Shown here in pieces: positions 46,439 to 52,220 of a DNA stretch of 64,000 nucleotides (positions are counted from its first letter, which is position 1; each line of letters begins with the position of its first letter). The position numbers and the translations under genes were made by a program. This stretch comes from Escherichia coli (GTDB lineage: Bacteria > Pseudomonadota > Gammaproteobacteria > Enterobacterales > Enterobacteriaceae): the NCBI RefSeq assembly GCF_003018235.1, contig NZ_CP027437.1. The stretch is one strand, 5' to 3'. The notes under the pieces were generated by a model. The model worked only from the letters and a program-made list of their open reading frames with translations, was not told where the DNA came from and did no database searches.

Positions 46439-47977
46439 ATGACCAATAATCCCCCTTCAGCACAGATTAAGCCCGGCGAGTATGGTTTCCCCCTCAAGTT
46501 AAAAGCCCGCTACGACAACTTTATTGGCGGCGAATGGGTAGCCCCTGCCGACGGCGAGTATTACCAGAACCTGACGCCGGTGACCGGGCAGCTGCTGTGC
46601 GAAGTGGCGTCTTCGGGCAAACGAGATATCGATCTGGCGCTGGATGCTGCGCACAAAGTGAAAGATAAATGGGCGCATACCTCGGTGCAGGATCGCGCGG
46701 CGATTCTGTTTAAGATTGCCGATCGGATGGAGCAGAACCTCGAACTGTTAGCGACCGCTGAAACCTGGGATAACGGCAAACCCATTCGCGAAACCAGTGC
46801 TGCTGATGTGCCGCTGGCGATTGACCATTTTCGCTATTTTGCCTCGTGTATTCGGGCGCAGGAAGGCGGTATTAGTGAAGTGGATAGCGAAACTGTGGCT
46901 TATCACTTCCACGAACCGTTAGGCGTGGTGGGGCAGATTATTCCGTGGAACTTCCCGCTGCTGATGGCGAGCTGGAAAATGGCTCCCGCGCTGGCGGCGG
47001 GCAACTGTGTGGTGCTGAAACCCGCACGTCTTACCCCGCTTTCTGTACTGCTGCTAATGGAAATCGTCGGTGATTTACTGCCGCCGGGCGTGGTGAACGT
47101 GGTTAACGGCGCTGGTGGGGAAATTGGCGAATATCTGGCGACCTCGAAACGCATCGCCAAAGTGGCGTTTACCGGCTCAACGGAAGTGGGTCAACAAATT
47201 ATGCAATACGCCACGCAAAACATTATTCCGGTGACGCTGGAGCTGGGCGGCAAATCGCCAAATATCTTCTTTGCTGACGTGATGGATGAAGAAGATGCCT
47301 TTTTTGATAAAGCGCTGGAAGGCTTTGCACTGTTTGCCTTTAACCAGGGCGAAGTTTGCACCTGTCCAAGCCGTGCTTTAGTGCAGGAGTCTATCTACGA
47401 ACGCTTCATGGAACGCGCCATCCGCCGTGTTGAAAGTATTCGTAGCGGTAACCCGCTCGACAGCGTGACGCAAATGGGTGCGCAGGTATCTCACGGGCAA
47501 CTGGAAACCATCCTCAATTACATTGATATCGGCAAAAAAGAGGGCGCAGACGTGCTCACCGGCGGGCGGCGCAAGCTGCTGGAAGGCGAACTGAAAGACG
47601 GCTACTACCTCGAACCGACTATTTTGTTTGGTCAGAACAATATGCGGGTGTTCCAGGAGGAGATATTTGGCCCGGTGCTGGCGGTGACCACCTTCAAAAC
47701 GATGGAAGAAGCGCTGGAGCTGGCGAACGATACGCAATATGGCCTGGGCGCTGGCGTCTGGAGCCGCAACGGTAATCTGGCCTATAAGATGGGGCGCGGC
47801 ATTCAGGCTGGGCGCGTGTGGACCAACTGTTATCACGCTTACCCGGCACATGCGGCGTTTGGCGGCTACAAACAGTCGGGCATCGGACGCGAAACCCATA
47901 AGATGATGCTTGAGCATTACCAGCAAACCAAATGCCTGCTGGTGAGCTACTCGGATAAACCGTTGGGGCTGTTCTGA
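46439..47977 (+). CDS. aldB: Aldehyde dehydrogenase B
   Basis: ORF track 542 aa; internal ATG at 46439 ([22 protein letters not shown]) gives 512 aa; aldehyde dehydrogenase catalytic motifs (ELGGKSP, CTCPSR). Confidence 0.9.
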
Positions 47978-47981
47978 TGTG

Positions 47982-48020
47982 AAAGGCAGGCAACGTTAAT
48001 AGTTGTCTGCCTTTGTTTTA
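47982..48020. terminator. Putative bidirectional terminator between convergent aldB and the 359-aa nuclease-like gene
   Basis: AAAGGCAGGCAAC-gttaata-GTTGTCTGCCTTT (13-bp stem, 1 mismatch) followed by a T-rich run. Confidence 0.5.
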
Positions 48021-49097
48021 GTTGTATAAAGCGGCAGTCGCTTTTAACTCATCGCTGAAAGAATAAATATCATCGAGAGATTCAATAGGATGGCGGGTTT
48101 CGTTTTTCTCTAAGTCAAATAAACCAATATATTTTTGATTTCGATTGAAATGTAATCTACAGAGTGGCTTTCGATTATTGTCATCTACAAGTATACCAAA
48201 ATAGCTTTTTGTATCTCTGTGGACTATTCGTGGTGCATCAAGCACTACGCGAACTATAGCTTTAACAATATGAAATCCTTCAAGTTCCTCCATAGTAGTA
48301 GCAATATCGGTTTCTTCTTTATTAATACATTCTACTTCCTCATTGTGTGAATTCGAATCAATTACAGATAATGACCCACCACCTATTGCCGATTTCAATC
48401 TTTCGTTTATTTGAGAGTTAATATATTGATTGGCAGCTTTCTTTGTTAATTTTGCAAACGTATCTTTTACCTTTTGTGTTAACATACCTTCATAAATTCT
48501 TGCTGCAAAGAATTTTACAAAATCCTCTTCAGGATTATTCATTTGTGCATGGAGAACTTTTTTAATTAAACTAACATATTTTAATTCACCTGCAGCATTA
48601 ATTATTGATTCCAAATCAAATGCTGATTTAGTAAGCTTCTTTATCTCGGGAACAACTGTTTCATCTAAGTCAAGTAGATCTATCTCAAGAAATGGTTTTT
48701 CATCCATTTTATTAGGTGCTTCTAAATCAGTAAAAAATTTATAAACTTGTCCATTGGTTAGAATAGATATTCTTGCATTTGTTACATGAAAGTATCGAAA
48801 AAGCTGTGAAGCATGATTTATATTTAGAGGATCGCCAATTTTTTTGCATTCAATGAGAATCTGAACCTCGCTATTTTTTAAGATTGCATAGTCAATCTTT
48901 TCACCTTTCTTCGTTCCAATATCGCATACAAACTCTGGGATAACTTCGGTAGGATCAAAGACATCATAACCTAACACATTGTTAATGAACGGCATTACGA
49001 AAGCATTTTTGGTAGCTTCCTCCGTTTCAATGACTCCGGCTTGTTGTTTTATTTTTGCGGATAATGAATTCAGCTTATCTATAAACTCCATAGACAT
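48018..49097 (-). CDS. Hypothetical protein with N-terminal HsdR_N-like PD-(D/E)xK nuclease domain and an uncharacterised C-terminal domain
   Basis: 359 aa; AAGGAG Shine-Dalgarno 6 nt upstream; N-terminus has the HsdR_N pattern (TEEATKNAFVMPFINNVLGYD, then IDYAIL ... ILIECKK as D...ExK); gene is markedly AT-rich. Confidence 0.6.
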   Translation of the reverse strand: MSMEFIDKLNSLSAKIKQQAGVIETEEATKNAFVMPFINNVLGYDVFDPTEVIPEFVCDIGTKKGEKIDYAILKNSEVQILIECKKIGDPLNINHASQLFRYFHVTNARISILTNGQVYKFFTDLEAPNKMDEKPFLEIDLLDLDETVVPEIKKLTKSAFDLESIINAAGELKYVSLIKKVLHAQMNNPEEDFVKFFAARIYEGMLTQKVKDTFAKLTKKAANQYINSQINERLKSAIGGGSLSVIDSNSHNEEVECINKEETDIATTMEELEGFHIVKAIVRVVLDAPRIVHRDTKSYFGILVDDNNRKPLCRLHFNRNQKYIGLFDLEKNETRHPIESLDDIYSFSDELKATAALYN

Positions 49098-49571
49098 TAT
49101 AACTCCTTTTATATATATTTAATAAAAATGCGTTTTATAAAAATATAGAAAATATTTATATATTAACGCGTTATCATTGGTCATAGTTAATGTATAACAC
49201 ACAAAAAATAATGTTTGCACATTGTAAATACAATGGTGAAACAAACTTGATATTTATCAAGAAAATAAAACAATGTCTTTTATTGGTTGTTTTAAACGTT
49301 CAATGAATACGAGTTGGAGCTATAGCAAGACTAGCTTCGATATCGCATGGATAATCTAATACAGATTTTTTAACACCTAATACTATGAGTTATATGTAAA
49401 TTGCGAGCATCCTCGCATCTTTTCAACAAGTTACTGCACACCGTTATTCTCCTTCCGAGCGGCATTCCTGAGTCAACTTTATCCCCCTGACGGCCCATAT
49501 AAATCGCGCTATCGTGATTGTTATCGCTAATTGTGTGTGTATCGTGTGTATAATCATGGAAGGGCAGGGAT

Positions 49572-49757
49572 GTGAAAAGTGCAGACGTGATCGCCATCCT
49601 GAAGCAGCATGGCTGGGAACATATTCGAACCCGTGGCAGTCATCATCAGTTCCGCCACCCTGTTCATCCGGGTCTGGTGACGGTTCCGCACCCTAAAAAA
49701 GATATTAAGCCCGGTACGCTGGCGCAAATTGGGCGTCAGGCTGGTTTAACATTTTAA
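49572..49757 (+). CDS. hicA: HicA-family toxin (mRNA interferase)
   Basis: 61 aa; HicA motif HGWEHIRTRGSHHQFRHP...VPHPKKDIKPGTLAQIGRQAGL; GTG start assumed, exact start uncertain. Confidence 0.75.
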   Translation: MKSADVIAILKQHGWEHIRTRGSHHQFRHPVHPGLVTVPHPKKDIKPGTLAQIGRQAGLTF

Positions 49758-49773
49758 AATTTCAGGAGGCAAT

Positions 49774-50184
49774 ATGTTTTATCCCGCCTATATCCACAGT
49801 GATCCTGACGGCAGCGCCAGCGGTTTTTTCCCTGATGTTCCAGGCTGTTATTTTGCTGGTGATACGCTGGACAACGCTTTCCAGGATGCGCGAAGTGCAC
49901 TGGTCGCGCACTTCGAAACCTTATGCGAGATGAATGAAGAGTTGCCGCTTCCAGGCTCTGTGGAAACACATCTGGTCCAGCGTGCGCAGGACTTTATTGG
50001 CGGGCAATGGTTGCTGGTGGATATCAATATGAATCAGTTCGAAGGTCGGGCTGAACGTATCAATATTACGATGCCGAAAAGATTACTGAACAAGATTGAT
50101 ACCTACGTGCGCAATAACCCAGACTACGCCAACAGAAGTGCGTTTCTGGCGGAAGCTGCCCGGCGTGTATTGCCGGGCGCTTAA
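49774..50184 (+). CDS. hicB: HicB-family antitoxin (RNase H-like fold with C-terminal ribbon-helix-helix)
   Basis: 136 aa; AGGAGG Shine-Dalgarno; C-terminal RHH-like segment (ITMPKRLLNKIDTYV...SAFLAEAARRVL); 16 bp after hicA. Confidence 0.75.
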   Translation: MFYPAYIHSDPDGSASGFFPDVPGCYFAGDTLDNAFQDARSALVAHFETLCEMNEELPLPGSVETHLVQRAQDFIGGQWLLVDINMNQFEGRAERINITMPKRLLNKIDTYVRNNPDYANRSAFLAEAARRVLPGA

Positions 50185-50255
50185 TCCCGCGTTTCGATGG
50201 TTGGCGGGCAACCGCACCGATATGTTGATACTGATAAGACGCGTTAAGCGTCGCA

Positions 50256-52220
50256 TCATGCGCTGGTTTCCTCATTCACCCAGATCCGCATTTCGCCTTC
50301 ACCCCGGTTAGCCCAGCTAAACCACGGGATAAACGTCAGAGTTTGCGGCTGGCGTTTGGCTGGCGCGCTGTCGTAATGCCACAGCGGTTGCTGCTCTGGA
50401 TTGCTCTGTTCATACCGGTAACCCGGTGCCTGGATTAAGATCTTATGGCTGAACAATCCCTTGCCTTCAAAGGTCGTAAATGGCGCATCGGCGGGCAGCC
50501 ACAGGTTATGTAGTGACTCGCCGTTGTCGGCCTGTTCCAGGCAATACACCAGCGGGCCGCGCTGAATCGCCACTTTTCCGGCGACGTGACGCACCAGCGG
50601 GTTACCGTAAACGCGGCGTACCGGCATCGGCAAAGTCAGATTCAGCGTATCGCCCTCCTGCCATTCGCGGGTAATGTGCAAATACCCTTTACGAATATCC
50701 TGCCCGACCTCTTCCCCATTCAATATGATCTGCGGCTGTGTGCACCAGTCCGGCAGACGTAAAGCCAGCGTATGACGCACCGGCTGGGGCGATTCAACCG
50801 CAATTGTCACCTGTTCCTGCCACGGATAGTTCCCGCTAATCCGCAGGCGCAACGTGCCATTTTCTACCGGCACTTCCATGCTGTTTCCTGCATATATGTT
50901 GATATACAACGCATCTTCACGCGGCGTGTAGAGATAATGACCAATCGAGGTCAGTACGCGGGCGATATTTGGCGGACAACAAGCGCAGCCAAACCAACGC
51001 TGGCGGATCGGCTTAACGTGATCGTAGATATGGTTGAATTTCAGCGATTTTGGATGTACTTCCAGCGGATTCACATAGAAGAAATGTTTGCCATCCAGTG
51101 CCATGCCGCCGAGCACAGTGTTGTACAGTGCGCGCTCCATCACATCGGCATATTGACTGTCGCCTTCCATTTCCAGCATTCGTCGGGCGAACATCATCAG
51201 GCCGATGGAAGCACAACTTTCGGCGTAAACCGTGTCATTCGGCAGATCGTAATCGCTGCTAAACGCTTCGCCGCTGCTTTGTGAGCCAATGCCGCCGGTA
51301 ATATATAACTGACGCTGGGCCATATTGTTCCACAGCCGCAGGCAATCCTGACGCTTGCTTTCATCGTGACTTAAACGCGCCAGATGTGCGACGCCAGTCA
51401 TCAGGTAGACAAAGCGTACTGCATGTCCGATGGCGGTTTGTTGCTGTGCGATGGGCAAATGCGCCTGGCTGTAGGCTTTATCTTTCACCATCCACGCCGG
51501 GCCGTAGGTGTGCCAGTGCGAGGTCTGCCCGCGCTTTTCATATTCCTGGTCGTAATAGTGCGGTTGCGCACCACGCTGTTCGACAAAATAGTTCGTCAGC
51601 GCCAGGTAGCGCGGCTCTTCGGTCACTTCATACAGGCGCATTAGTGCCAGTTCAATTTCCGGGTGACCAGGATAACCGTGTAACTTACTTTCACCTGGAC
51701 CAAATACGCTGTCGATATGATCGGCCAGACGGCAAACCACTTCCAGCAAGCGCCGCTTGCCCGTGGCCTGGAAGAAGGCGACTCCGGCTTCAATCAGATG
51801 ACCGGCGCAGTAAAGTTCATGACACTCCGCCAGATTGCTCCAGCGTTCTTCGGGCGCTTTTACCGTAAAGTAAGTATTGAGATAGCCATCTTCGCACTGG
51901 GCGGAGGCGATCAGTTCAATCACCTCGTCAGCAGTTTTTTCCAGTTCGGCATCCGGCTTCTGGCACAGCGACCAGGCTACCGCTTCCAGCCATTTGGCGA
52001 CGTCGCTGTCCTGAAACACCATCCCGTAAAATTCACCGTCTTGCAGTCCTGCGGCAATGCGAAAGTTTTCAATCGCATGGCTGGGTTCCGCTTCTGGGAT
52101 ACGATCGTTCAAGGCGTCCCACTGATAAGGAATCACCACATCGCGGACCAGTTGTTGGTACTGACCGAGGAACGGATCGCTGACCGTCAGTTTATGCAGA
52201 TCGACTTCCGAAATGTTCAT
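50256..52220 (-). CDS. Glycoside hydrolase family 127 (DUF1680; beta-L-arabinofuranosidase-like)
   Basis: ORF track starts at an upstream TTG; ATG at 52220 (MNISEVDLHKL) is preceded by AAGGAG and gives about 654 aa; Cys-rich motif WFGCACCPPNIARVL. Confidence 0.75.
   Translation of the reverse strand: MNISEVDLHKLTVSDPFLGQYQQLVRDVVIPYQWDALNDRIPEAEPSHAIENFRIAAGLQDGEFYGMVFQDSDVAKWLEAVAWSLCQKPDAELEKTADEVIELIASAQCEDGYLNTYFTVKAPEERWSNLAECHELYCAGHLIEAGVAFFQATGKRRLLEVVCRLADHIDSVFGPGESKLHGYPGHPEIELALMRLYEVTEEPRYLALTNYFVEQRGAQPHYYDQEYEKRGQTSHWHTYGPAWMVKDKAYSQAHLPIAQQQTAIGHAVRFVYLMTGVAHLARLSHDESKRQDCLRLWNNMAQRQLYITGGIGSQSSGEAFSSDYDLPNDTVYAESCASIGLMMFARRMLEMEGDSQYADVMERALYNTVLGGMALDGKHFFYVNPLEVHPKSLKFNHIYDHVKPIRQRWFGCACCPPNIARVLTSIGHYLYTPREDALYINIYAGNSMEVPVENGTLRLRISGNYPWQEQVTIAVESPQPVRHTLALRLPDWCTQPQIILNGEEVGQDIRKGYLHITREWQEGDTLNLTLPMPVRRVYGNPLVRHVAGKVAIQRGPLVYCLEQADNGESLHNLWLPADAPFTTFEGKGLFSHKILIQAPGYRYEQSNPEQQPLWHYDSAPAKRQPQTLTFIPWFSWANRGEGEMRIWVNEETSA

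What the first reader, a model, noticed from the sequence alone, without database searches (positions are those of the whole stretch)
49572..50184. HicA/HicB-like toxin-antitoxin pair in the variable block
The 61-aa protein has the HicA signature (GSHH...VPHPKKD) and the 136-aa protein has a HicB architecture with a C-terminal ribbon-helix-helix, in toxin-first order with 16 bp spacing and a strong Shine-Dalgarno on hicB. The sequences differ from the K-12 hicAB pair as I remember it, so this looks like an additional, horizontally acquired module. It may stabilise the island or act together with the adjacent nuclease gene.
Basis: partly seen in the sequence, partly recalled or inferred. Interest (0 to 1): 0.45.

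Follow-up and report, generated by a model that had tools for sequence, protein, structure and literature searches.

The report
Ordinary HicA/HicB toxin–antitoxin pair
This is a correctly recognised but ordinary toxin–antitoxin gene pair of the well-known HicAB family; it is an old resident of this chromosomal site that most E. coli strains have since deleted, not a newly imported gene module.

Summary
The two ORFs exist exactly as described: hicA at 49572-49757 (GTG start, 61 aa) and hicB at 49774-50184 (136 aa), with a 16-nt gap and an AGGAGG before hicB. Pfam, solved structures and an AlphaFold model place them in the HicAB family. HicA keeps the Gly22/His24 needed for toxicity in relatives. 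HicB has the N-terminal HicB fold plus a C-terminal ribbon-helix-helix, which is Gerdes class 4, like B. pseudomallei HicAB and Y. pestis HicA3B3. K-12 HicAB is the different HTH class. RefSeq already annotates both proteins.

The "horizontally acquired island module" reading is not supported. GC content matches the flanks, and no close copy was found on plasmids or phages. The pair lies in the same aldB…GH127 neighbourhood in at least eight enterobacterial genera and is under purifying selection. 505 of 5426 complete E. coli genomes carry it. Another 3397, including K-12 and BL21, keep a 49-bp fossil of the hicB 3' end at the same site.

The 359-aa nuclease-like gene is a separate low-GC cassette. 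It accompanies only 189 of the 505 carriers and occurs without hicAB in other genera.

Conserved upstream motifs suggest a HicB operator over the -10 box. No toxicity or regulation was tested. Interest is low.

The parts
49399..49417 (+). Left edge of the sequence block shared by all E. coli hicAB carriers. It includes a terminator-like hairpin (49402-49417) followed by a T-run.
   Evidence: The breakpoint with the 359-aa cassette is at 49398/49399. The hairpin was found. A homologous hairpin is visible upstream of hicA in Enterobacter loci.
49487..49515 (+). Candidate upstream promoter (P1): -35 CTGACG (49487-49492), a 17-nt spacer, then -10 TATCGT (49510-49515). The conserved island GCGCTAnnGTGAT (49506-49518) overlaps it. 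An alternative reading is a CRP-like half-site centred about -40.5/-41.5 from the downstream promoter. This is inferred, not shown.
   Evidence: Conserved columns in the 16-genus upstream alignment. The (T/C)GTGAT element lies a fixed 35-38 nt from the -10. The site scores below the threshold of the promoter scan.
49536..49551 (+). Two direct TGTGTAT copies 9 nt apart (49536-49542 and 49545-49551). This is the candidate HicB (RHH) operator, and it overlaps the -10 box.
   Evidence: It is the only such site in the 64-kb window, against 0.02 expected by chance. It is conserved in 16 enterobacterial loci. The same TGTGTA/TACACA hexamer recurs, mostly in pairs 9 nt apart, upstream of hicA in Serratia, Nicoletella, Avibacterium and Massilia. 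In Massilia it forms the palindrome GTGTGTATAATACACAC over TATAAT. A single copy occurs in Janthinobacterium.
49549..49554 (+). Perfect -10 hexamer TATAAT (candidate autoregulated promoter, P2), 17 nt before the hicA start. The predicted transcription start at about 49560-49562 falls on the hicA Shine-Dalgarno.
   Evidence: The sequence is shown. The hexamer is conserved, and the distance from the -10 to the start codon is 16-20 nt in 15 of the 16 loci and 13 nt in Serratia.
49558..49564 (+). Shine-Dalgarno-like GGAAGGG for hicA. The conserved AGG core is at 49561-49563.
49570..49575 (+). ATGTGA: a two-codon ATG-TGA 'start-stop' overlapping the GTG start of hicA out of frame. It may act as a translational throttle on the toxin. 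This is speculative.
   Evidence: Present as ATGTGA in 13 of 16 enterobacterial loci, as GTGTGA in one more, and as ATGTGA in Avibacterium.
49572..49757 (+). hicA: a 61-aa HicA-family toxin (predicted RNase) with a GTG start and Gly22-Ser23-His24 in the motif required for toxicity in relatives.
   Evidence: RefSeq lists it as WP_000833473.1. dN/dS against other genera is 0.05-0.14.
49764..49769 (+). Strong Shine-Dalgarno AGGAGG for hicB.
49774..50184 (+). hicB: a 136-aa antitoxin. Residues about 1-90 form the HicB N-terminal fold. Residues about 95-135 form a ribbon-helix-helix DNA-binding domain, with helices at 102-114 and 121-135.
   Evidence: RefSeq lists it as WP_000499743.1. dN/dS is 0.05-0.11.
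50101..50149 (+). The part of hicB (codons about 110-125) that survives as a 49-bp fossil between aldB and yiaW in 3397 other complete E. coli genomes, including K-12 MG1655, BL21, W and C.
50181..50213 (-). Last ~10 codons of a 47-aa convergent small ORF whose stop codon overlaps the hicB stop. The rest of that ORF and yiaW-yiaV-yiaU-yiaT are deleted in this strain. The deletion junction lies between 50213 and 50231.
   Evidence: Comparison with BL21 (L002) and Escherichia sp. E1V33 (L006).

Best explanation
**What it is.** A chromosomal type II toxin-antitoxin operon of the HicAB family, in the subclass whose antitoxin carries a C-terminal ribbon-helix-helix (Gerdes class 4).

**How the proteins work (inferred from homology).**
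- HicA is a small ribosome-independent RNase-type toxin that uses His24.
- HicB neutralises it through its N-terminal domain.
- As a tetramer, HicB uses its RHH domains to repress the operon.

**How expression is arranged (inferred from conserved sequence).**
- The operator is the pair of TGTGTAT repeats over the TATAAT box at 49536-49554.
- This promoter is so close to hicA that its transcript should start on the hicA ribosome-binding site and mainly yield HicB.
- A weaker upstream promoter (49487-49515) would give the full hicA-hicB message.
- A GTG start, a weak SD and perhaps the overlapping ATG-TGA would keep toxin translation below that of hicB, which has an ATG and AGGAGG.

**Evolution.** The pair is an old, vertically inherited resident of the aldB-GH127 interval in Enterobacteriaceae. 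It has been lost from most E. coli.
For: **Shown: family membership**
- Pfam matches at E=2e-23 and 9e-36 over the full model lengths.
- PDB homologues 4c26/6g26, 6g1n and 4p78.
- The AF2 HicB model has pLDDT 89.7. Its best full-length PDB matches are 6g26, 6g1n and 4p7d, and it has C-terminal helices at 102-114 and 121-135.
- Gly22 and His24 align with the residues required in B. pseudomallei HicA. The 4c26 crystal is the H24A mutant, and the query has His at that position (residue roles from PMC11594946).

**Shown: constraint and gene structure**
- dN/dS is at most 0.14 for both genes, with synonymous sites saturated.
- The GTG start and the 14-16-nt gap are conserved in most enterobacterial loci.

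**Shown: synteny and loss**
- Synteny across genera.
- hicB fossils in 3397 E. coli genomes and in E. whittamii and Escherichia sp. MOD1-EC7003.
- Escherichia sp. E1V33 keeps hicA(frameshifted)-hicB followed by yiaWVUT.
- GC content is typical of the flanks.
- The best genuine plasmid match is 58% identical and the best phage match 43%.

**Inferred: regulation**
- Conserved motif islands in otherwise diverged leaders.
- A HicB operator overlaps the -10 box in Y. pestis (PMC11594946).
- In K-12, the autoregulated promoter yields a transcript truncated at the hicA RBS while an upstream promoter gives the full message (PMC7167474).
Against: - Nothing about toxicity, neutralisation, RNase activity, DNA binding or transcription starts was or could be tested here.
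- All Escherichia copies have Gly54 where 13 of 15 other enterobacterial orthologues have Trp. The toxin may be attenuated.
- Toxin decay is frequent in relatives: internal hicA deletions in L007 and L014, a frameshift in L006, and H24P in Enterobacter chuandaensis.
- The consensus promoter scan found no site upstream of hicA.
- No inverted repeat, the usual operator form in characterised HicB systems, is present in this leader. The repeats here are direct.
- NCBIfam and PADLOC gave no hit for either protein.
Confidence: 0.85

Rival explanations
1. One reading: a recently and horizontally acquired extra TA module that stabilises a variable island or works together with the adjacent 359-aa nuclease gene.
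For: - The pair is present in only 505 of 5426 complete E. coli genomes.
- It lies next to a low-GC gene with a PD-(D/E)XK nuclease domain.
- Homologues of that gene also lie directly next to hicB, on the other side, in Trabulsiella, Enterobacter chuandaensis, Lelliottia and an Enterobacter MAG.
Against: - hicAB has native GC content.
- It is syntenic across genera, with divergence like its flanks.
- hicB fossils at the same site in 3397 E. coli genomes show ancestral presence followed by deletion.
- No close copies were found on plasmids or phages.
- 316 of 505 carriers lack the 359-aa gene.
- The 359-aa gene occurs beside aldB without hicAB in C. freundii, Salmonella and Superficieibacter.
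- PADLOC knows no such system.
Confidence: 0.05
2. A decaying module. The toxin is attenuated or inactive in Escherichia, and HicB persists mainly as an autoregulated DNA-binding protein. The locus would then be on its way to the deletion seen in most strains.
For: - Gly54 replaces the Trp found in most enterobacterial orthologues.
- Toxin-first decay is seen repeatedly in relatives: L006, L007, L014 and L015.
- Most E. coli have deleted hicA and the 5' part of hicB.
Against: - hicA is intact, and the same HicA protein (WP_000833473.1) is annotated in the three E. coli carriers inspected.
- Gly22 and His24 are kept.
- Position 54 is variable across the wider family: Q in B. pseudomallei, and L, M or C elsewhere.
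- dN/dS is low.
Confidence: 0.15
3. The pair's biological role is abortive-infection type anti-phage defence, as proposed for HicA-domain systems, rather than stress response or locus stabilisation.
For: - Literature proposal for HicA domains (PMC10865869).
- The interval also hosts a nuclease-like cassette in some strains. This is reminiscent of a small defence hotspot.
Against: - No PADLOC match.
- Long-term vertical synteny is unlike typical fast-turnover defence islands.
- No experimental data are available.
Confidence: 0.15

Closest known systems
Burkholderia pseudomallei HicAB (PDB 4c26, 6g1n, 6g26)
   Same: - Toxin-first order.
- The ~60-aa HicA aligns end to end at E=1.2e-16, with the same G-S-H motif.
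- HicB aligns over residues 2-133 at E=2.7e-25, including the C-terminal RHH.
- It is the best structural match of the AF2 HicB model.
   Different: - Foldseek reports about 35% HicB identity.
- The B. pseudomallei operator is described as palindromic (PMC11594946). Here the conserved repeats are direct and 9 nt apart.
- Different genomic context.
Yersinia pestis HicA3-HicB3 (PDB 4p78, 4p7d)
   Same: - HicB3 has the same two-domain architecture with an RHH (E=1.6e-21 over residues 1-131).
- Its main operator overlaps the -10 box (PMC11594946), as inferred here.
   Different: - HicA3 is only distantly similar (E=1e-4).
- hicA3 and hicB3 are separated by 174 bp (PMC11594946), against 16 nt here.
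- The operators there are 15-bp inverted repeats.
E. coli K-12 HicAB (PDB 6hpb; Gerdes class 3)
   Same: - Same family and gene order.
- The HicB N-terminal domain is 33% identical over 66 aa.
- The inferred two-promoter logic, in which the autoregulated promoter gives an RBS-less hicA transcript, parallels the K-12 description (PMC7167474).
   Different: - K-12 HicB ends in an HTH domain, not an RHH.
- HicA shows no significant pairwise similarity.
- It lies at a different locus (yncJ-ydcR).
- It is complete in 4253 of 5426 genomes, against 505 for this pair.

Membership tests
HicAB type II toxin-antitoxin, RHH subclass (Gerdes class 4) | Toxin with a HicA domain (PF07927; small dsRBD-like protein of about 60 aa) | tested here: met
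   Pfam E=2.1e-23 over model positions 2-58 of 58. Matches PDB 4c26/6g26 at E~1e-16.
HicAB type II toxin-antitoxin, RHH subclass (Gerdes class 4) | Conserved Gly and catalytic His (Gly22/His24 in B. pseudomallei numbering) | tested here: met
   G22-S23-H24 is present and aligned to those residues. The roles of the residues are taken from PMC11594946.
HicAB type II toxin-antitoxin, RHH subclass (Gerdes class 4) | Antitoxin with the HicB N-terminal fold | tested here: met
   PF15919 at E=9e-36. The AF2 model matches the HicB N-terminal domain structure 6g1c with TM-score 0.85 (normalised by target length) and rmsd 2.0 Å.
HicAB type II toxin-antitoxin, RHH subclass (Gerdes class 4) | C-terminal ribbon-helix-helix DNA-binding domain on HicB | tested here: met
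   - Full-length alignment to the RHH-bearing B. pseudomallei HicB and Y. pestis HicB3.
- The model has a conserved extended segment, RINIT at residues 95-99, followed by helices 102-114 and 121-135.
- The strand itself is not assigned in the monomer model.
HicAB type II toxin-antitoxin, RHH subclass (Gerdes class 4) | Toxin gene first, closely linked bicistronic arrangement | tested here: met
   hicA precedes hicB with a 16-nt gap. The same order is found in all orthologous loci, with gaps of 14-16 nt in most enterobacterial ones.
HicAB type II toxin-antitoxin, RHH subclass (Gerdes class 4) | HicA arrests growth or cleaves RNA, and HicB neutralises it | not testable with these tools
   This needs expression and biochemical experiments. 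Purifying selection is only indirect support.
HicAB type II toxin-antitoxin, RHH subclass (Gerdes class 4) | HicB autorepresses the operon by binding an operator in the promoter | tested here: inconclusive
   Conserved TGTGTA repeats lie over the -10 box across three bacterial families. They are direct rather than palindromic repeats, and binding was not tested.
K-12-type HicAB (HTH subclass, class 3) | HicB C-terminal helix-turn-helix domain and close similarity to K-12 HicA and HicB | tested here: not met
   HicA compared with K-12 HicA gives E=0.011. Only the N-terminal 66 aa of HicB align.
Recently acquired genomic-island cargo | Atypical composition, a copy on mobile elements, and no synteny in relatives | tested here: not met
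   GC is 51-52%, against 54-55% in the flanks. The best plasmid match is 58% identical and the best phage match 43%. Synteny holds in at least eight genera.
Three-gene system with the 359-aa HsdR_N-domain protein | Consistent co-occurrence of the genes | tested here: not met
   189 of 505 E. coli carriers have both. The 359-aa gene is found without hicAB in L032-L035.

The most novel reading that the evidence does not exclude
This HicAB lineage may carry an unrecognised, deeply conserved control design, shared from Enterobacteriaceae to Pasteurellaceae and Oxalobacteraceae. It would have three elements.
- An RHH operator built from TGTGTA hexamers 9 nt apart, sitting on the -10 box.
- A promoter placed so that its transcript begins on the hicA ribosome-binding site and makes antitoxin only.
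- An ATG-TGA 'start-stop' overlapping the GTG start, which diverts ribosomes from the toxin frame.

Separately, K-12 and most laboratory E. coli carry an unannotated fossil of this second hicB between aldB and yiaW.
Probability: 0.3. Interest if true: 0.3.

Novelty: already known. Interest (0 to 1): 0.12.

Why it matters
It matters little beyond correct annotation. The family, its fold, its mechanism and this subclass are established, and RefSeq already names both proteins.

There are three modest points of value.
- It is a clean example of a chromosomal TA pair that is old and vertically inherited and is being lost piecemeal, rather than being mobile cargo. Most E. coli, including K-12, retain a datable fossil.
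- The comparative data give a specific, testable operator and promoter model for RHH-type HicB.
- It corrects the assumed link to the neighbouring nuclease-like gene.

Tried and rejected
- **NCBIfam** gave no hit for HicA, HicB or the 359-aa protein. **PADLOC** gave none for HicA or HicB, and only a weak type IIG REase-MTase hit for the 359-aa protein.
- **Rfam** at E≤1 found nothing relevant in 47500-50800.
- **The consensus promoter scan** found no site between 49300 and 49572. Its only terminator-like site is at 49402-49417.
- **The repeat finder** found no inverted repeat in the hicA leader. Its hits are all in the AT-rich spacer at 49108-49303, which belongs to the 359-aa cassette. A palindromic operator like those of Y. 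pestis and B. pseudomallei was therefore rejected for this locus, in favour of direct repeats.
- **The CRP class II reading** of (T/C)GTGAT could not be separated from the 'upstream -10' reading. The distal half-site is not conserved.
- **Co-presence of the K-12-type pair** in carriers could not be shown by inclusion-exclusion. The K-12 type is complete in 4253 of 5426 genomes, which is too few for a bound.
- **Literature.** The HicA accession WP_000833473 appears in one paper, only as a BLAST query. No paper links hicAB to this aldB locus.
- **Fold search of the 359-aa model** matched only its N-terminal nuclease domain, weakly (3h1t, E=7e-3). The C-terminal two-thirds had no solved relative.

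Full report
**Observation.** The window is an E. coli chromosomal segment with the gene order selA-selB-yiaY-aldB … GH127-MFS-araC-sgbE.
- At the reported coordinates there are two same-strand ORFs. hicA is at 49572-49757 (GTG start, 61 aa, containing RGSHHQF…VPHPKKD). hicB is at 49774-50184 (ATG start, 136 aa).
- They are separated by 16 nt that contain AGGAGG at 49764-49769.
- Every descriptive element of the finding is correct.

**Identity.**
- HicA matches Pfam HicA_toxin over the whole model (E=2.1e-23). HicB matches HicB_lk_antitox over the whole model (E=9.1e-36).
- Among solved structures, HicA is closest to B. pseudomallei HicA (4c26/6g26, E~1e-16). It aligns from its first residue to that protein's Met1. 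Its His24 sits opposite the Ala of the H24A crystal mutant, and Gly22 is conserved. These are the residues reported as required for toxicity (PMC11594946).
- HicB aligns over residues 2-133 to B. pseudomallei HicB (E=2.7e-25) and over 1-131 to Y. pestis HicB3 (E=1.6e-21). Both carry a C-terminal ribbon-helix-helix. K-12 HicB matches only residues 1-66.
- An AF2 model built on 19 orthologues has pLDDT 89.7. It shows a β-β-β-α-α-β N-domain and then helices at 102-114 and 121-135. Its best PDB hits are 6g26, 4p7d and 6g1n at full length.
- In Gerdes' scheme this is class 4, meaning hicAB with an RHH HicB. K-12 is class 3, with an HTH (PMC10865869).
HicA has no significant similarity (E=0.011). 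HicB is 33% identical over 66 aa only.
- RefSeq already annotates both proteins, as WP_000833473.1 and WP_000499743.1.

**Start codon.**
- The GTG at 49572 is the first start codon in the frame, and RefSeq uses it.
- A GTG sits at the homologous position in all 16 enterobacterial loci aligned, and the Pasteurellaceae orthologues also start with GTG.
- A conserved AGG lies about 7-8 nt upstream.

**Distribution in E. coli.** The counts below are from 5426 complete genomes.

| Locus state | Genomes |
|---|---|
| Whole hicAB pair present | 505 |
| – also carry the 359-aa gene | 189 |
| – aldB-hicA-hicB-GH127 with no 359-aa gene | 316 |
| Only a 49-bp stretch matching window 50101-50149 (hicB codons ~110-125), between aldB and yiaW; includes K-12 MG1655, BL21, W and C | 3397 |

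- In the fossil-only genomes the 49-bp stretch is 98-100% identical to the window.
- In BL21 the fossil continues, more diverged, through the hicB stop into a convergent 47-aa ORF and then yiaWVUT.
- The window strain has the complementary deletion. Homology to the yiaW-type allele stops at 50213 and resumes at 50231 and 50267. So the 47-aa ORF (except its last ~10 codons) and yiaWVUT are missing.
- Escherichia sp. E1V33 has hicA (with a 1-nt deletion), hicB, the 47-aa ORF and yiaWVUT together. This is the likely ancestral Escherichia arrangement.
- E. whittamii and Escherichia sp. MOD1-EC7003 carry fossils like K-12.

**Other genera.**
- A scan of species-representative genomes found hicAB orthologues with HicB 68-86% identical. 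They occur in Pseudocitrobacter, Pluralibacter, Trabulsiella, Citrobacter, Yokenella, Enterobacter, Lelliottia, Phytobacter and Serratia.
- In most of these the pair lies between aldB (or yiaU-yiaT) and the same GH127-MFS genes.
- Flank identities are comparable: GH127 80-86%, MFS 83-90% and AldB 91-96%.
- Synonymous sites are saturated. Where it can be computed, dN/dS is 0.05-0.14 for hicA and 0.05-0.11 for hicB.
- hicA and hicB have 52% and 51% GC, against 55% for aldB and 54% for GH127.
- The closest genuine plasmid copy is 58% identical and the closest phage copy 43%.
- Together with the fossils, this supports long vertical residence and repeated loss, not recent import.
- Decay is also visible elsewhere. 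There are internal hicA deletions that keep the promoter and hicB (L007, L014). There is a broken hicB with no hicA (L029). Enterobacter chuandaensis has H24P.

**The 359-aa neighbour.**
- Positions 47979-49398 form a low-GC cassette: 33% in the gene and 25% in its upstream spacer. It replaces 103 bp of the aldB-hicA spacer found in E. coli that lack it.
- The protein has an HsdR_N-type PD-(D/E)XK domain (Pfam E~2e-7) with invariant D69, E83 and K85.
- It belongs to a very large family of ~360-aa stand-alone proteins, with 1210 cluster representatives at E<1e-30.
- Its confident AF2 model (pLDDT 90.9) matches solved structures only weakly, and only through the nuclease domain.
- Homologues 76-78% identical lie directly downstream of hicB in Trabulsiella, Enterobacter chuandaensis, Lelliottia and an Enterobacter MAG.
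- Other homologues lie beside aldB with no hicAB at all, in C. freundii, Salmonella and Superficieibacter.
- The two elements therefore share a variable interval but are not a unit.

**How it probably works.**
- The protein mechanism is inferred from homology. HicA would be a His24-dependent RNase-type toxin. HicB would block it with its N-domain and, as an RHH tetramer, repress transcription (PMC11594946).
- For regulation, I aligned 120 nt upstream of hicA from 16 genera. Only a few islands are conserved in otherwise diverged sequence:
  - TTCCnG at 49465-49470.
  - cTGaCg-17 nt-TAnnGT, with GCGCTAnnGTGAT, at 49487-49518.
  - GTGTGTAT-NN-TGTGTATAAT at 49535-49554.
  - The AGG of the Shine-Dalgarno.
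  - ATGTGA around the start codon.
- The two TGTGTAT copies are 9 nt apart, and the second overlaps a perfect TATAAT. The pattern is unique in the window, against 0.02 expected by chance.
- The same hexamer (TGTGTA or TACACA) recurs upstream of hicA in Serratia, Nicoletella, Avibacterium and Massilia, mostly in pairs 9 nt apart, and as a single copy in Janthinobacterium. In Massilia it forms a palindrome centred on TATAAT. I take this to be the HicB operator.
- The -10 box ends 16-20 nt before the start codon in 15 of the 16 loci and 13 nt before it in Serratia. Transcription should therefore begin on the hicA Shine-Dalgarno.
- This parallels K-12 hicAB, where the autoregulated promoter makes a transcript lacking the hicA RBS and an upstream promoter makes the full message (PMC7167474). 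The conserved 49487-49515 element is a candidate for that upstream promoter.
- A class II CRP-like half-site is an alternative reading that I could not exclude.
- The GTG start, and possibly the overlapping ATG-TGA mini-ORF (13 of 16 loci), would further limit toxin translation relative to hicB.
- None of these regulatory steps has been tested.

**Caveats.**
- Toxicity, neutralisation, RNA cleavage and DNA binding are all untested.
- Escherichia HicA has Gly54 where most enterobacterial orthologues have Trp. This could mean attenuation.
- I could not establish whether this strain also carries the K-12-type pair.
- In the searchable literature I found no functional study of this particular orthologue group.

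**Verdict.**
- The family assignment is right and already in the databases.
- The 'acquired island module linked to the nuclease' interpretation is not supported.
- Interest is low. The operator and promoter model and the K-12 fossil are small by-products worth a note.

Noticed in passing
window 47979-49398 (gene 48018-49097, - strand): A low-GC cassette (33% in the gene, 25% in its spacer) encodes a 359-aa protein. The protein has an HsdR_N-type PD-(D/E)XK nuclease domain with invariant D69/E83/K85. A helical region and a C-terminal beta-rich domain follow, and these have no solved-structure match. The family is very large (1210 50%-identity cluster representatives at E<1e-30) and appears uncharacterised. 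Homologues recur in the aldB-GH127 interval of several genera, on either side of hicAB or without it.
   Followed up: partly
window 50101-50149; K-12 MG1655 NZ_CP025268.1 3756696-3756744 (L036 1501-1549): K-12, BL21, W, C and about 3400 other complete E. coli genomes carry an unannotated 49-bp fossil of this hicB between aldB and yiaW. It is preceded by REP elements.
   Followed up: yes
window 49570-49575: ATGTGA: an ATG-TGA start-stop overlaps the GTG start of hicA. It is conserved in 13 of 16 enterobacterial loci and in Avibacterium. It may act as a translational throttle, but its significance was not tested against a genome-wide background.
   Followed up: partly
window 49731-49733 (HicA codon 54): All Escherichia HicA copies examined have Gly54 (QIGRQAG). 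Thirteen of 15 other enterobacterial orthologues have Trp (QIWRQAG). This may indicate an attenuated toxin.
   Followed up: no
window 50181-50213 (- strand); BL21 L002 5069-5212: A 47-aa hypothetical ORF (WP_001066080.1, hydrophobic) is convergent with hicB, and their stop codons overlap. It follows hicB in Escherichia sp. E1V33, and weakly in Pseudocitrobacter. Only its last ~10 codons remain in the window.
   Followed up: partly
L007 5870-6010, L014 5840-6010, L015 (HicA H24P), L006 169-350, L029 6001-6245: Toxin-first decay recurs in orthologous loci. There are internal hicA deletions that leave the promoter/operator and hicB intact, a 1-nt deletion in an A-run, loss of the catalytic His, and a broken hicB.
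   Followed up: yes
L005 (JAIJJM010000854.1, 1246 bp, labelled Collinsella sp. MAG); PLSDB records NZ_CP141089.1 and NZ_CP134663.1: A 1.2-kb contig binned as Collinsella is 99% identical to the E. coli aldB-hicAB-GH127 junction, so it is probably binning contamination. Two 4.9-Mb 'plasmid' records in PLSDB that carry this hicB are evidently chromosomes.
   Followed up: no
window 27777-32951 (- strand): A very long ORF of 1724 aa lies upstream of the selAB region. It was not examined.
   Followed up: no
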